Shown one piece after another: positions 2,414-16,734 of a DNA stretch of 20,000 nucleotides. The position numbers and the translations under genes are program-made. How positions within the stretch are numbered: position 1 is the first letter of the stretch; every line of letters starts with the position of its first letter. The notes under the pieces were generated by a model. It saw nothing but the letters and a program-made list of their open reading frames with translations. It was not told where the DNA came from and made no database searches. Where the stretch lies: the IMG/VR virus record IMGVR_UViG_3300024507_000366; one strand, given 5' to 3'. The stretch comes from an uncultured virus (IMG/VR IMGVR_UViG_3300024507_000366) (Duplodnaviria; Heunggongvirae; Uroviricota; Caudoviricetes).

Positions 2414-2953
2414 GTGCAGCACATCTGTTTAAATTGCAAGACAGAGTTTGTTAACTCTGACAAACGAAGTAAGTTTTGTAAGCAATCCTGCGCTGCGGTT
2501 TACAACAACAAGCTTTTTCCAAAAAGGAAAAGGCTGCGTAAATGCAAGAATTGTGATAACCTTGTCAAATCTGGCCGAACTTATTGCGAGACCTGTGTTT
2601 CTAAAAAAATCCATTTTTGTAAAAACGGAATGATTAAAAATGGATTGATCGAGGACAGAACTCTTGAAGAAGAAGTTTTCTTAAAAAAGCACAGAGGCGC
2701 TAACAGATACGACCACATCAGACAGCACGCCCAGCGTGTAATGAAAGACGAAAAACGCGCCTGCCAGTGCGGTTACGACAAGCACGTTGAAGTTTGCCAC
2801 ATAAAAGCCATAAGGGACTTCGATTTAAAAACAAAAATAAAAGACATTAACTCAAAGGAGAATCTCGTTCTCCTATGCCCCAACTGCCACTGGGAGTTTG
2901 ACAATGGACTTTTGACCCTAAAAAATGTTGGTAATTCGCAGAGCAACGCTTGA
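2414..2953 (+). CDS. HNH endonuclease with N-terminal Zn-binding motifs (putative free-standing homing endonuclease)
   Basis: EVCHIK…NSKENLVLLCPNCHWEFD HNH motif; several CxxC pairs; starts 8 nt after the tRNA CCA. Confidence 0.85.
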   Translation: MQHICLNCKTEFVNSDKRSKFCKQSCAAVYNNKLFPKRKRLRKCKNCDNLVKSGRTYCETCVSKKIHFCKNGMIKNGLIEDRTLEEEVFLKKHRGANRYDHIRQHAQRVMKDEKRACQCGYDKHVEVCHIKAIRDFDLKTKIKDINSKENLVLLCPNCHWEFDNGLLTLKNVGNSQSNA

Positions 2954-3419: not shown

Positions 3420-3644
3420 ATGTCTTACGTTCAATTAACTGAAGCCCAACTCTATGACCTTGGAAGTCGCGGTTTACCGTATGACGACAGGAATATTCTG
3501 AGGCTTCATATCCTGCATCTTCGTCACGAACACGATATGAATGTTCGTGATATTGCGAAGAGGATGGGAATGAAAATGAAGACGGTACAAAAGTATTTGA
3601 AGTCCGATTCTGTCGAATTGCAAAAGTTTAGACCTGAGTTTTAA
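3420..3644 (+). CDS. small helix-turn-helix protein
   Basis: MNVRDIAKRMGMKMKTVQKYL HTH pattern. Confidence 0.7.
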   Translation: MSYVQLTEAQLYDLGSRGLPYDDRNILRLHILHLRHEHDMNVRDIAKRMGMKMKTVQKYLKSDSVELQKFRPEF

Positions 3645-3650
3645 AATTTC

Positions 3651-3725
3651 GGTGCTATAGCTCAATGGTAGAGCAGCGTCCTTTTAAGTCGTTGGTTCTG
3701 GGTTCAAATCCCAGTGGCACCACCA
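3651..3725 (+). tRNA. tRNA-Lys(UUU)
   Basis: GGTGCTA/TGGCACC acceptor, anticodon loop CTTTTAA, CTGGG-TTCAAAT-CCCAG T arm, ACCA end. Confidence 0.93.
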
Positions 3726-3730
3726 ATTTT

Positions 3731-3841
3731 GGCGTAGGGCTAAGACGGTTCGATTCCGTCGTCATCTTGGCCGATGTTTAATAGCCGATATGGACAAGGC
3801 AATGCATCTGCCATCAAGGTTCGATTCCTTGCGCGCCATCA
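3731..3841 (+). ncRNA. tRNA-like structured RNA with two T-arm hairpins
   Basis: GACGG-TTCGATT-CCGTC (3744-3760) and CAAGG-TTCGATT-CCTTG (3815-3831); ends GGCGT/GCGCC pair; two internal hairpins; starts 5 nt after tRNA-Lys. Confidence 0.6.
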
Positions 3842-3867
3842 ATTCTCTTAATCAAGAAATAAATCAT

Positions 3868-4056
3868 ATGGAACACCCTCTATATTATGCCATTGATTAT
3901 GATCTTAATGTGATCAAGTTGGGCTATTTTGACAACTACCATCTTGCTTGTCTTTATGCTGAAAAAAAGGAGATTGAGTTTATGAAAATTTTCAATCACG
4001 CTGAACTGGTTACTCTTTACAATAACATTGATGCTGCCACATCAGATTGGTCTTAA
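3868..4056 (+). CDS. hypothetical protein (MEHPLYYAID…)
   Basis: Internal ATG of ORF 3790..4056 after an AT-rich leader; the upstream part overlaps the tRNA-like RNA. Confidence 0.6.
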   Translation: MEHPLYYAIDYDLNVIKLGYFDNYHLACLYAEKKEIEFMKIFNHAELVTLYNNIDAATSDWS

Positions 4057-4112
4057 CCGTTAGATGATAGCGGCATAAAATGGAGCCTTCATTGGTTAGA
4101 CAACCTTTTACT

Positions 4113-4140
4113 TGACTTCCTTCAATCCTTCAAATACACT
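4113..4140 (+). promoter_or_regulatory. sigma70-like promoter TTGACT…TACACT, 9 nt before ATG 4150
   Basis: Direct motif match with 16-17 bp spacer. Confidence 0.6.
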
Positions 4141-4149
4141 GATCGCACA

Positions 4150-4347
4150 ATGAAAATCACAACCAAAAAGTCCAAGTCTGTCCGACTTGTTGCCGAAAGC
4201 TACGAAGACCGTTGCCTGCTGACCGAAATCAGCCGCAAGATGAACAACAATGCGTGCTATCACGAATACATTGACACTTCAGCATTTGACCGTCACGAAC
4301 GTGTCACTGAACTGACCCTGTGCATTACAGAGCCCGTTAACTCTTAA
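4150..4347 (+). CDS. hypothetical protein
   Basis: 65-aa ORF directly after a promoter. Confidence 0.65.
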   Translation: MKITTKKSKSVRLVAESYEDRCLLTEISRKMNNNACYHEYIDTSAFDRHERVTELTLCITEPVNS

Positions 4348-4391: not shown

Positions 4392-4730
4392 ATGAAGCAA
4401 TGCCGCCGCTGCGGGACCATAAAAGAAATCGAACAGTTCCCATTCTTTTCTGGTCAGCAGACGGGGCGCAAAAACACCTGTACGGAATGCACGAAAGAGT
4501 TGTCTCGGTTAAGAGCAAAGCTCAAGACCGAGAATCCTCCACCAGCAGCGGGCGAATGCCCTATTTGCAGCACTCACACCGAAATCTGGATACTGGATCA
4601 CTGTCACTTCACGAATGAGTTTCGGGGCTACATCTGCAACAACTGCAATCTCGCGCTTGGCAGATTCAACGACGACGAAAAATTGTTGAGAAAAGCTATT
4701 GACTATTTGAACGGAAAAAATAGAGTGTAG
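4392..4730 (+). CDS. endonuclease VII family protein
   Basis: CPIC…ILDHCH…FRGYICNNCNLALGRFNDD…LRKAIDYL; N-terminal CRRC…CTEC Zn finger. Confidence 0.88.
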   Translation: MKQCRRCGTIKEIEQFPFFSGQQTGRKNTCTECTKELSRLRAKLKTENPPPAAGECPICSTHTEIWILDHCHFTNEFRGYICNNCNLALGRFNDDEKLLRKAIDYLNGKNRV

Positions 4731-15823: not shown

Positions 15824-15960
15824 TCGCCCATCAGAAGAAAAGTCTCGCCAGCGCGCGCCGTTCGGGCATTCTTCCGCGCTTTTTCGCCCCCCTCCCCCCC
15901 CTCAAAAAAAAGCAAAAAAAGGTTTGCACGCGCGGTCCCGAGCGCCCAACCTCCTAGCGT

Positions 15961-16734
15961 ATGAACTCCATCAACCTCCGCATCTGCGGCTCAGACAATT
16001 CCGAGGTCAGCGTCGCTGAACTCGCCGCCATCAAGTCGCCCGAGAAGACGGCGACCTATCAGCCCATCCCGCACTCTGATCTCGTTTCGATCTTCCGCGA
16101 CAATATGCGCGCGGCGGATTTGACCATCAAGCAGGAACTGCACACGGTTTCCCGCTTCGGTCAGCGTTACTTCGGCCTTTTCGAGATTGACCTCGGCAAG
16201 GCTGGCACCGCTGGCACCGTCGTCGGCTTGCGTAACTCGCACGACAAGAGCTTCCCCGCTGGCATCTGCGCGGGCAACGCTCCTTTCGTTTGCAGCAATC
16301 TCGTTTTCCACAACGAGGTTGTGTTCACCCGTCGCCATACGTCGAACGTGCTGCGCGACTTGCCCCAGATTGTCGGGCGTGCGATTGGTGCCTTGTCCGA
16401 TATGTGGACGAAGCACGAAACCCGCGTCTCGACCTATCAGGGGCGCGAGCTTTCCGATGAGGAGGCTGGCAATCTGATCCTGCGTAGCTATCGGGCCGGT
16501 GCAATCGGCAAGACGATGATCGCGGATGTTCTCGATCAATGGGAGAAGCCCGCGCACGAAGAGTTTGCCCCGCGCAACCTCTGGTCCCTGCACAACGCCT
16601 TCACCGAGGTGTACAAGGGGAACTTGCTTGCGCTCCCCAAGCGCAGCCAAGCCCTGCACTCCATCTTCGATCCGTTCGCGGGTCTGAACCTCACGGTTGA
16701 CATCAAGCCCGAGGTGGAGGTGGCGACGGTCTAA
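15961..16734 (+). CDS. DUF932 family protein
   Basis: TYQPIPH, RYFGL, GLRNSHDKS, FVCSNL, RRHT and NLWSLHNAFTE motifs. Confidence 0.85.
   Translation: MNSINLRICGSDNSEVSVAELAAIKSPEKTATYQPIPHSDLVSIFRDNMRAADLTIKQELHTVSRFGQRYFGLFEIDLGKAGTAGTVVGLRNSHDKSFPAGICAGNAPFVCSNLVFHNEVVFTRRHTSNVLRDLPQIVGRAIGALSDMWTKHETRVSTYQGRELSDEEAGNLILRSYRAGAIGKTMIADVLDQWEKPAHEEFAPRNLWSLHNAFTEVYKGNLLALPKRSQALHSIFDPFAGLNLTVDIKPEVEVATV

What the first reader, a model, noticed from the sequence alone, without database searches (positions are those of the whole stretch)
3731..3841. tRNA-like RNA with two T-arms directly behind tRNA-Lys
Seen: about 110 nt with two perfect 5-bp hairpins carrying the identical TTCGATT T-loop (3744-3760, 3815-3831). 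The ends pair like an acceptor stem (GGCGT/GCGCC) followed by ATCA rather than ACCA. Between the T-arms lie a long imperfect hairpin (GTCATCTTGGC/GCCGATATGGAC) and GGCA-ATGCATC-TGCC. It does not fold as a canonical cloverleaf. It has the same T-rich flanks as the true tRNAs, so co-processing is plausible. Inference: a novel tRNA-mimic ncRNA (decoy for anticodon nucleases, Y-RNA-like, or interlocking T-loop module), or a rearranged tRNA relic.
Basis: partly seen in the sequence, partly recalled or inferred. Interest (0 to 1): 0.72.

Follow-up and report, generated by a model that had tools for sequence, protein, structure and literature searches.

The report
Phage tRNA-like RNA with two T-arms
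An uncultured freshwater phage carries, inside its tRNA gene array, a well conserved gene for a 108-111-base RNA that has the end stem and T-arm of a tRNA plus a second T-arm but no anticodon arm, so it is a tRNA look-alike of the poorly understood kind long annotated in phages T5 and T4, and its job is still unknown.

Summary
Window 3731-3841 holds two perfect 5-bp hairpins with the same TTCGATT loop, enclosed by a GGCGT/GCGCC end stem. ARAGORN and Rfam 15 call nothing there.

It is a real gene, not a relic. I found five sequence types: 5 viral contigs and 12 of 28 metagenome loci. Between the two main phage types the tRNA-Lys-plus-element block is 93.5% identical, against 64-74% for the coding flanks. 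Ten of 13 variable columns are unpaired, and the stem changes keep pairing. Conservation stops exactly at the RNA's ends. Two types end in G-CCA, as all 21 neighbouring tRNAs end in N-CCA. A sixth relative lacks the element precisely.

It is not a decoder. It has no anticodon arm, none of 3600 single deletions gives a tRNA, and the CCA tail has decayed in 3 of 5 types.

The middle fold is unresolved: there are two equal-energy models and no compensatory changes.

The closest known thing is the annotated T5 'rna2', also a closed RNA with two T-arms, found in 437 phage records. It shares architecture but not sequence. Function is unknown; my best guess is a processed tRNA mimic that acts as a decoy or scaffold.

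The scan reported this same element before on other DNA (e1-5835957).

The parts
3651..3725 (+). tRNA-Lys(ttt), the upstream neighbour (context, not part of the RNA); it ends in A-CCA followed by ATTTT
   Evidence: ARAGORN; Rfam tRNA 72.3 bits; 3' context
3726..3730 (+). ATTTT spacer/leader, of the same type as before the true tRNAs. The inferred RNase P cut lies between T3730 and G3731
   Evidence: TTTT is kept in all five types; the cleavage is inferred
3731..3737 (+). 5' strand of the acceptor-like stem (GGCGTAG). Five pairs form with 3833-3837. A3736 and G3737 are mismatched, or A3736 is bulged with G3737-C3832 paired
   Evidence: pair counts. T3735.G3833 becomes T-A in type D
3738..3743 (+). 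G-rich linker GGCTAA (model S1), or the 5' strand of helix P2 (model S2)
   Evidence: invariant in all types
3744..3760 (+). T1: first T-arm-like hairpin, 5 bp plus the TTCGATT loop
   Evidence: invariant in 5 of 5 types
3761..3795 (+). Middle domain. In S1 it is one imperfect hairpin (3761-3771 with 3784-3795) that directly continues the T1 3' strand. In S2 it is the 3' strand of P2 (3767-3772) plus hairpin P3 (3775-3780 with 3791-3796). It holds 5 of the 13 variable columns
   Evidence: unresolved
3798..3812 (+). P4 hairpin GGCA/TGCC. The loop is ATGCATC here. In the other four types A3802 is G, which adds a fifth pair and leaves a 5-nt GG-containing loop. The central GCA is invariant
3815..3831 (+). 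T2: canonical-position T-arm, 5 bp plus the TTCGATT loop (TTCAATT in type B), abutting the 3' acceptor strand
3832..3837 (+). 3' strand of the acceptor-like stem (CGCGCC)
3838..3841 (+). Discriminator-like purine (A here, G in types C and D) plus a degenerate CCA: TCA here, CCG in type B, intact CCA in types C and D

Best explanation
It is a gene for a small non-decoding tRNA mimic. It is transcribed with the phage's tRNA array. Host tRNA-processing enzymes probably cut it out: RNase P before G3731, and 3' trimming or CCA repair after the purine at 3838. The product keeps a tRNA-like acceptor/T-arm minihelix (outer stem plus T2) and carries a second T-arm hairpin (T1) in place of the D and anticodon arms. 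I think it most likely folds into a compact body that shows two tRNA-elbow-like surfaces. It would then act in trans by occupying or recruiting a factor that recognises the acceptor/T-arm part of tRNAs, as a decoy or scaffold, and not by reading codons. Shown here: the gene is real, is under purifying selection, behaves as a modular tRNA-array unit, and has no anticodon arm. Inferred: the processing sites, the two-elbow fold and the decoy/scaffold action. My odds are about 0.85 that it is a functional processed RNA, about 0.9 that it does not decode, and about 0.35 that it works by T-arm/elbow mimicry towards a host or phage factor.
For: Conservation. There are five sequence types (A, A2, B, C, D). 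They come from 5 of 5 viral-contig pattern hits (the same five with a 3'-half pattern) and 12 of 28 metagenome pattern hits. Between types A and B the 201-nt tRNA-Lys-plus-element block is 93.5% identical, against 64-74% for alignable coding flanks and 87.6% for tRNA-Ile. Identity ends exactly at TTTT|GGCG and after the CCA-like tail plus ATT. Type A2 keeps the element although its tRNA-Lys is very different. Ten of 13 variable columns are unpaired in model S1 (about p = 0.02). G3833A in type D turns T.G into T-A, and 100% of 149 cells stay paired. tRNA-type context. The leader and trailer match those of the true tRNAs. Types C and D end in G-CCA-ATT, as all 21 of 21 ARAGORN tRNAs of the five types end in N-CCA-A. 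Modularity. In type D an HTH ORF separates the element from tRNA-Lys. Type E has the same array with tRNA-Lys-CCA running straight into the sequence that otherwise follows the element. Not a decoder. ARAGORN and the Rfam tRNA model find nothing. None of 3600 single deletions gives a tRNA. The CCA tail is mutated in 3 of 5 types. Analogue. The T5 misc_RNA rna2 is a closed stem with two T-arm hairpins. It is held by 437 phage records, and both T stems co-vary in 7 of 7 sampled sequences. Further closed two-T-arm loci with perfect 7-bp Watson-Crick end stems occur in unrelated viral contigs L033, L034, L041, L067 and L073.
Against: No transcript ends, modification or stability were shown. There is no compensatory (two-sided) change in any helix (0 pairs), because the five types are 96% alike. 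The fold of the middle third is therefore open. Models S1 and S2 have equal energy (-33.2 and -33.1 kcal/mol), and ViennaRNA prefers still other folds, with hundreds of suboptimals within 3 kcal/mol. The acceptor-like stem has only 5-6 pairs. No partner is identified and no tRNA-related enzyme gene lies in the window. Type E phages do without the element, so it is accessory. Homing-endonuclease-type genes sit in the array, so gene conversion could have added to the high identity, although it would not explain loop-only variation or the exact boundaries. The family is narrow: 0 of 15 bacterial pattern hits, and among 13 viral records reached through my loci only the type-B record itself matched.
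Confidence: 0.4

Rival explanations
1. It is a cis-acting processing or punctuation module. It is a tRNA-shaped handle whose only job is to let RNase P and 3' nucleases separate tRNA-Lys from the downstream mRNA (an EndoVII-like ORF in types B-D). The excised RNA itself would have no function.
For: It sits between tRNA-Lys and an ORF, with tRNA-type leader and trailer. Its 3' tail tolerates mutation.
Against: Only the end stem and T2 would be needed for this, yet the 5' 48 nt including T1 are invariant in all five types apart from one C deletion. In type E the tRNA-Lys 3' end abuts the same downstream sequence without the element. In type D it is not next to tRNA-Lys.
Confidence: 0.15
2. It is a Y-RNA-like (YrlA-type) RNA. 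The inner part, T1 then a sealed hairpin then the small P4 hairpin, corresponds to the T / acceptor-like / D order of YrlA. The RNA would tether a Ro60-type protein or another ring protein to a nuclease.
For: Under model S1 the order T, sealed stem, small hairpin matches the YrlA order described in PMC4201824 (sections 5 and 6 and passages read). The 5' end GGCGTAG differs from the YrlA motif GNCGAAN0-1G at one position. That paper reports YrlA RNAs in 22 phages.
Against: No Rfam family covers the element even at E<=10. None of the 34 window ORFs scanned has a TROVE/Ro60 hit, and 0 of 3 partial related records have one, while the control genomes did ring. The P4 loop lacks the D-loop signature: no A14/A21 equivalents, and only one G in this window's type. 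An extra T2 arm sits where YrlA has none.
Confidence: 0.07
3. It is an unusual chargeable tRNA or tmRNA-like adaptor that is aminoacylated through its acceptor/T minihelix.
For: It has a G1-C72-type start, a purine at the discriminator position and an intact CCA in types C and D. The triplet GCA in the P4 loop is invariant while its neighbours vary.
Against: There is no 5-bp/7-nt anticodon arm: a U33 equivalent is present in 1 of 5 types and a purine-37 equivalent in 1 of 5. Only 2 nt lie between P4 and T2. ARAGORN in tRNA, intron and tmRNA modes and Rfam are all negative. The CCA has decayed in 3 of 5 types while 21 of 21 real tRNAs keep it.
Confidence: 0.05
4. It is a decaying remnant of a rearranged tRNA or tRNA dimer with no present function, kept similar between phages only by recent exchange or homing-endonuclease co-conversion.
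For: The CCA tail decays and type E lacks the element. HNH and EndoVII-like genes lie in the array. An origin from tRNA material is plausible, as the swapped-dimer-like locus L041 suggests.
Against: Identity is 93% against 64-74% in flanking genes, with sharp boundaries at the RNA ends. Variation is concentrated in loops and stem changes preserve pairing. The element is kept in five types with different neighbours.
Confidence: 0.1

Closest known systems
Phage T5 / BF23 'rna2' (misc_RNA in AY692264 at 32962-33086 and in AJ604530), an annotated RNA with no function stated
   Same: A small RNA gene inside a phage tRNA cluster. One acceptor-like end stem encloses two 5-bp hairpins with T-loop sequences, and T1 has the same TTCGATT loop. 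T2 abuts the 3' strand as in tRNA, and there is no anticodon. In one T5-like phage it also lies directly behind a tRNA-Lys.
   Different: There is no sequence or model-level homology: R1 does not hit it, and blastn of the element finds no T5-like phage. T5 rna2 keeps a D-arm, a 5-bp co-varying anticodon-stem analogue and a 5-nt variable loop, with T1 inside the module that replaces the anticodon loop. The window element has no D-arm, and T1 starts only 6-7 nt after the 5' strand. T1-to-T2 spacing is 52-53 nt in rna2 and 71 nt here.
Phage T4 species 1 and species 2 RNAs (rnaC, rnaD; NC_000866 misc_RNA 'small, stable RNA')
   Same: Unexplained small RNAs encoded at the end of a phage tRNA cluster that also holds a homing endonuclease gene. 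rnaC has an end stem plus a canonical T-arm around non-tRNA hairpins.
   Different: rnaC has one T-arm, not two. There is no sequence similarity. Rfam has no family for them either. That they are processed with the tRNAs is recalled, not tested here.
YrlA-type bacterial and phage Y RNAs (PMC4201824)
   Same: A tRNA-derived mimic without an anticodon. Under model S1 the inner order T-arm, sealed stem, small hairpin is the same. M. smegmatis YrlA is cut by RNase P and receives CCA (passages read).
   Different: There is no Ro60 gene nearby, no Rfam match and no exact 5' motif. There is an additional outer T-arm and free tRNA-like ends.
Canonical and class II tRNAs
   Same: The acceptor-type end stem, the T-arm, the purine-73-CCA context and the leader and trailer of array units.
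   Different: No D-arm, no anticodon arm, a 5-6 bp end stem, and a length of 108-111 nt. It is rejected by ARAGORN and by the Rfam tRNA model.

Membership tests
tRNA (canonical or intron-containing) | Cloverleaf recognised by ARAGORN, including intron and low-threshold modes | tested here: not met
   only tRNA-Lys is called. At the 70% threshold a spurious overlap call spans tRNA-Lys/T1, not the element.
tRNA (canonical or intron-containing) | Rfam RF00005 covariance model at or near gathering score | tested here: not met
   no tRNA-model match over 3727-3846 even at E<=10. Only T-arm fragments match other models, at 12-14 bits.
tRNA (canonical or intron-containing) | Removal of one insertion restores a tRNA | tested here: not met
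   0 of 3600 single deletions (10-54 nt) give an ARAGORN tRNA.
tRNA (canonical or intron-containing) | 5-bp anticodon stem with a 7-nt loop carrying U33 and purine 37 | tested here: not met
   the only 7-nt loop (P4) has a U33 equivalent in 1 of 5 types and a purine 37 in 1 of 5. The stem has 4 bp here, and only 2 nt separate it from T2.
tRNA (canonical or intron-containing) | Acceptor stem plus T-arm plus N73-CCA | tested here: inconclusive
   a 5-6 bp stem, a canonical T2, G-CCA in types C and D, but A-TCA in A and A2 and A-CCG in B.
T5 rna2 family | Sequence or covariance-model homology | tested here: not met
   R1 gives no hit on rna2; no T5-like phage among the blastn hits of the element.
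T5 rna2 family | End stem enclosing two T-loop hairpins, with T2 next to the 3' strand | tested here: met
T5 rna2 family | Complete tRNA frame (D-arm, 5-bp anticodon-stem analogue, about 5-nt variable loop) with T1 inside the module that replaces the anticodon loop | tested here: not met
   One search shows this frame for rna2. In the window no D-arm and no such enclosing stem could be placed.
YrlA-type Y RNA | Match to a curated Rfam Y-RNA/YrlA model | tested here: not met
   none listed at E<=10.
YrlA-type Y RNA | Order T stem-loop, acceptor-like stem-loop, D stem-loop (PMC4201824) | tested here: inconclusive
   Met only if model S1 is the true fold. S2 is equally good.
YrlA-type Y RNA | GNCGAAN0-1G motif near the 5' end | tested here: not met
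   GGCGTAG, with one mismatch (T for A).
YrlA-type Y RNA | Ro60/TROVE gene within about 4 kb on the same strand | tested here: not met
   no TROVE hit among the 34 window ORFs scanned; 0 of 3 related partial records (36-46% complete), so absence from the whole genome is not shown.
tmRNA | tRNA-like domain plus tag reading frame recognised by ARAGORN or Rfam | tested here: not met
T4 rnaC/rnaD | Sequence homology | tested here: not met
   R1 hits only true tRNAs in the T4 locus.
T4 rnaC/rnaD | Small stable RNA processed out of the tRNA-cluster transcript | not testable with these tools
   Only contigs of RNA libraries were available. They cannot show transcript ends.

The most novel reading that the evidence does not exclude
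Phages have repeatedly built 'two-elbow' tRNA mimics from tRNA-dimer material. Examples are this family, T5 rna2, and the unrelated closed two-T-arm loci L033, L034, L041 and L073. In each, every T-loop would be paired with a nearby GG-containing loop, so that one small RNA presents two tRNA elbows. The class would target a host machine that reads tRNA elbows or acceptor/T-arms (RNase P, the ribosomal E-site/L1 stalk, a tRNA-directed defence nuclease, or a modification enzyme). It would be a general and so far unrecognised phage counter-measure or take-over tool.
Probability: 0.15. Interest if true: 0.8.

Novelty: new variant of a known kind. Interest (0 to 1): 0.45.

Why it matters
Phage tRNA clusters have recently been tied to escape from tRNA-cleaving defences. 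For example, T5 tRNA-Lys resists PARIS (PMC11464382, abstract and passages read). The non-tRNA RNAs that sit in the same clusters (T4 species 1 and 2, T5 RNA1/rna2) carry no stated function in the records seen here. This element shows that a second, sequence-unrelated lineage of closed two-T-arm RNAs is kept under strong selection in uncultured freshwater phages. Natural presence/absence variants also exist. Together these suggest that the architecture itself, not one sequence family, is what selection keeps. If a partner were found, for instance with the tractable T5 rna2, it would assign a role to a whole class of unannotated phage genes.

Tried and rejected
(1) Intron-containing tRNA: ARAGORN -i and low thresholds and 3600 in-silico single deletions gave nothing.

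(2) Rfam: gathering and E<=10 searches gave only T-arm fragments.

(3) More distant homologues:
- Two viral scans were wasted because I miscounted the Ns. Their zero hits mean nothing.
- The corrected patterns found only the same five viral contigs.
- 12 of 28 metagenome loci carry the element. The other 16 scored at most 12.8 bits.
- 0 of 15 bacterial loci carry it.
- Among 13 viral records reached through my loci, only the type-B record matched.
- Megablast and blastn against named phages gave no homologue. The Streptomyces-phage hits are a 28-nt T-arm similarity inside another unannotated tRNA-like stretch.

(4) Structure:
- The MFE z-score is -1.2.
- S1 and S2 are equal in energy, and there are many suboptimal folds.
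- A loop-loop pairing GAUG/CAUC (3773-3776 with 3805-3808) is broken in type B, so I dropped it.
- There are no compensatory changes.

(5) Expression: four metatranscriptome runs kept as contigs give low-depth pieces. One contig runs 3300-3770, from tRNA-Ile across tRNA-Lys into the first 40 nt of the element. Contigs cannot show ends or strand, DNA carry-over is possible, and the uncovered part proves nothing.

(6) A sigma-70-like site (TTGACA-18-TAGATT) lies upstream of the element in type D. It is one of 3 sites found against 1.2 +/- 1.2 expected and lies inside the HTH ORF, so it is not evidence.

(7) Coding explanation: ORF 3790-4056 overlaps the element only in type A. The same frame stops after 19 codons in type B (read).

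(8) Ro60/TROVE search and tRNA-enzyme neighbours: none found.

(9) A strict descriptor for closed two-T-arm RNAs found T5 rna2, L034, L041 and L073, but 0 hits in 283 kb of loci that were not chosen for having two T-loops. It also misses this window's weaker end stem, so it is not a census.

(10) The L033 and L034 elements have no match in named phages.

(11) Literature: the searches 'tRNA-like / two T-arms / bacteriophage', 'species 1 RNA / bacteriophage T4 / ...' and 'bacteriophage T5 / tRNA genes / stable RNAs / ...' listed no paper describing this element or a function for T5 rna2. Older subscription papers are not in the library.

Full report
**What is there.** Window 3731-3841 (+) lies 5 nt behind tRNA-Lys(ttt) 3651-3725.
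- T1 is GACGG-TTCGATT-CCGTC (3744-3760).
- T2 is CAAGG-TTCGATT-CCTTG (3815-3831).
- The end pairing is GGCGT/GCGCC (3731-3735 with 3833-3837), followed by A-TCA.
- An imperfect hairpin lies at 3761-3771/3784-3795, and GGCA-ATGCATC-TGCC at 3798-3812.

ARAGORN calls four tRNAs in the window (Arg-tct, Ile-tat, Lys-ttt, Leu-taa) and nothing over the element, also with introns allowed and at lowered thresholds. Rfam 15 reports only the four tRNAs at gathering score. At E<=10 it reports only T-arm-sized fragments of unrelated models over the element. None of 3600 in-silico single deletions of 10-54 nt produces a tRNA that ARAGORN accepts. It is therefore not a tRNA with one insertion.

**It is a conserved gene.** An exact word from T1 found 5 viral contigs. 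A degenerate pattern found 28 metagenome loci, and a covariance model (R1) finds the complete element in 12 of them at 140-156 bits. The other 16 score at most 12.8 bits.

The loci fall into five sequence types: A (this window), A2, B, C and D. The surrounding phages are well diverged. Between types A and B the alignable coding regions are 64-74% identical in DNA and tRNA-Ile is 87.6% identical. The block of tRNA-Lys plus element is 93.5% identical. Alignability stops exactly at TTTT|GGCG on the left and after the CCA-like tail plus ATT on the right. Type A2 has a very different tRNA-Lys upstream, yet the element differs from type A at two loop positions only.

Thirteen columns vary inside 3731-3841. 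The rest keep pairing: T3735.G3833 becomes T-A in type D, and A3838G keeps a possible pair with T3730. One is a single-C deletion at the hairpin/loop border. The first 48 nt, including T1, are otherwise invariant.

ORF 3790-4056 overlaps the element only in type A. In type B the same frame ends after 19 codons. Protein coding therefore does not explain the conservation.

**It behaves as a unit of the tRNA array.** All 21 of 21 ARAGORN tRNAs in the five types end in N-CCA followed by A(T) and are preceded by T-rich leaders. The element has the same ATTTT leader. In types C and D it ends in GCC-G-CCA-ATT. Type B has A-CCG and types A and A2 have A-TCA, each one substitution away from CCA. With G3731 as +1 and the purine at 3838 as discriminator, the end stem has 5 pairs plus A.C and G mismatches, or 6 pairs with A3736 bulged.

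In type D a small HTH ORF, which lies before tRNA-Lys in this window, separates tRNA-Lys from the element. A sixth relative, type E (L186), has the same array and HTH ORF. There tRNA-Lys-CCA runs straight into the sequence that follows the element in types B and D, so this is a clean empty site. The element is therefore a discrete, dispensable module, gained or lost like a tRNA gene.

**It is not a decoder.** There is no D-arm and no 5-bp/7-nt anticodon arm. The only 7-nt loop (P4) has a U33 equivalent in one type and a purine-37 equivalent in another. Only 2 nt separate P4 from T2. In four of five types A3802G closes a fifth pair and leaves a 5-nt loop. The tail has lost CCA in 3 of 5 types while the real tRNAs never have. 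This argues against an essential aminoacyl-acceptor role.

**The fold.** The outer stem, T1, P4 and T2 are compatible with all variation. The middle third is unresolved.
T1 then stacks on a sealed stem as a T-arm stacks on an acceptor stem, followed by AA and P4.
- Model S2 (RNAalifold) pairs GGCTAA(GA) 3738-3745 with (TC)TTGGCC 3765-3772 around T1, and forms a second hairpin 3775-3780/3791-3796.

The two have equal energy (-33.2 and -33.1 kcal/mol; per type). ViennaRNA finds hundreds of alternatives within 3 kcal/mol. Neither model has a compensatory change (0 pairs). S1 places all five mid-domain variable sites in unpaired positions. S2 places two of them in stems, one of which breaks a pair in type C. 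I lean to S1 at roughly 60:40, on thin evidence.

**Comparison with what is known.** A note from this scan (e1-6107528) pointed to small RNAs annotated in the phage T5 tRNA region, so I fetched them. The T5 misc_RNA 'rna2' (125 nt) has an 8-bp end stem, a D-like hairpin, a T1 hairpin with the same TTCGATT loop, and a T2 next to the 3' strand. It occurs in 437 phage records, 418 of them with at least 80% coverage, and is mostly unannotated. In 7 of 7 sampled sequences, including Acinetobacter phage ZZ1, both T hairpins are kept with different stem sequences. The T1 stems are GCTCG/CGAGT, GCTTG/CAAGT, TACGG/CCGTA and GATGG/CCATT. RNAalifold supports a normal tRNA frame for it, with a co-varying 5-bp anticodon-stem analogue that encloses the T1-containing module.

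The window element shares the idea but not the sequence. R1 does not hit rna2 and blastn finds no T5-like phage. It also does not share the frame: it has no D-arm, T1 sits right after the 5' strand, and T1-T2 spacing is 71 nt against 52-53 nt.

T4 rnaC and rnaD, annotated 'small, stable RNA' at the end of the T4 tRNA cluster, have at most one T-arm and no similarity. Rfam has no family for them either.

YrlA-type Y RNAs have the order T, sealed stem, D (PMC4201824). Under S1 the inner part matches that order. However, the 5' motif has one mismatch, no Ro60/TROVE gene was found among the 34 window ORFs scanned or in 3 partial related records, no Rfam model matches, and the P4 loop is not D-loop-like.

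**A wider class.** A viral-contig scan for two T-loop words 48-62 nt apart returned at least 117 loci, of which 80 were fetched. Most are tandem tRNAs. Five distinct loci without a matching ARAGORN pair (L033, L034, L041, L067, and L073, which equals L083) have a perfect 7-bp Watson-Crick end stem around both T-arms. L033 and L041 lie among tRNA genes. L041 looks like a tRNA dimer whose inner and outer acceptor strands are swapped. L033 and L034 show the S1-like order: linker, T1, hairpin, small hairpin, T2. These loci are unrelated in sequence, so they are analogues. A strict descriptor found none in 283 kb of loci that were not chosen for having two T-loops, so the class is sporadic.

**Context.** The window is phage DNA. 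It carries HNH and EndoVII-type nuclease genes between the tRNAs, a metallophosphoesterase, a clamp-loader/RuvB-like ATPase, an SNase-like nuclease and a GP88-family protein. There is no close cultured relative: the best protein identity is under 50%. The DNA occurs in riverine metagenomes. The host is unknown.

**How it most likely works.** Shown: a conserved, modular, non-coding, non-decoding tRNA-like gene. Inferred: it is co-transcribed with the array and cut out by RNase P and 3' trimming. Also inferred: it folds into a compact body with an acceptor/T2 minihelix and a second T-arm, and acts by mimicking the part of tRNA that processing, modification, ribosomal or defence factors recognise. 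A pure processing handle, a Y-RNA-type tether, a chargeable adaptor and a dead relic are the rivals. Each is weighed in its own section.

**Verdict.** This is a new, narrow family of a known but unexplained kind. The scan had already reported the same element on another genome (e1-5835957).

Noticed in passing
L186:2700-3000 (type E viral contig): A related phage with the same tRNA array and HTH ORF lacks the element precisely. tRNA-Lys-CCA is followed at once by the sequence that follows the element in types B and D. Both junctions share a ...CC-R-CCA-ATT word that could mediate gain or loss.
   Followed up: partly
L139:1545-1625 (-), type C: Where the other types have tRNA-Lys, type C has a stretch that ARAGORN does not call. 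It ends in ...GGCACTA-CCA-ATTTT and looks like a short end stem plus a degenerate T-like hairpin, perhaps a truncated tRNA-Lys.
   Followed up: no
window 2414-2953, 4392-4730 and 3420-3644: HNH and EndoVII-type nuclease genes and a 74-aa HTH ORF are interspersed among the tRNAs. The HTH ORF lies before tRNA-Lys here but after it in type D. ORFs 3869-4347 are absent from types B-E.
   Followed up: partly
L150 (type A2), reverse strand positions 1068-1161 and 1403-1479: Type A2 has a 94-nt tRNA-Ile(tat) call, unusually long, and a tRNA-Lys with an atypical T-loop region. The adjacent element is almost identical to type A.
   Followed up: no
L041:356-493 (-), L033, L034, L067, L073: Other viral contigs hold closed two-T-arm RNAs with perfect 7-bp end stems. 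L041 looks like a tRNA dimer with swapped inner and outer acceptor strands and two good D-arms. L067 has three T-loop-like hairpins.
   Followed up: partly
L168:340-440 (Streptomyces phage Genie2, between two tRNA-Pro genes): An unannotated stretch with a T-arm and a 27-of-28-nt match to window 3808-3835. ARAGORN and Rfam do not call it, so it may be another degenerate tRNA-like RNA.
   Followed up: partly
L192 (Acinetobacter phage ZZ1, 72322-72599): A T5 rna2-like two-T-arm element (77% identity over 79 nt) sits in a T4-like phage beside a gene annotated as an RF-1 domain peptide chain release factor.
   Followed up: no
L017:5489-5665 and 15929-16024: In a distant viral contig with 27 tRNA genes, model R1 gives weak full-length hits (10-17 bits) at places next to tRNAs where ARAGORN calls nothing. 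These may be other non-canonical tRNA-like units.
   Followed up: no
L187 (T5 AY692264 30287-33086): The T5 record annotates six misc_RNAs in its tRNA region: RNAIII, RNAI, RNA1, RNA2H, RNAIV and rna2. RNA1 has one T-arm and a tRNA-like D region. RNAI ends in GCC-G-CCA.
   Followed up: partly
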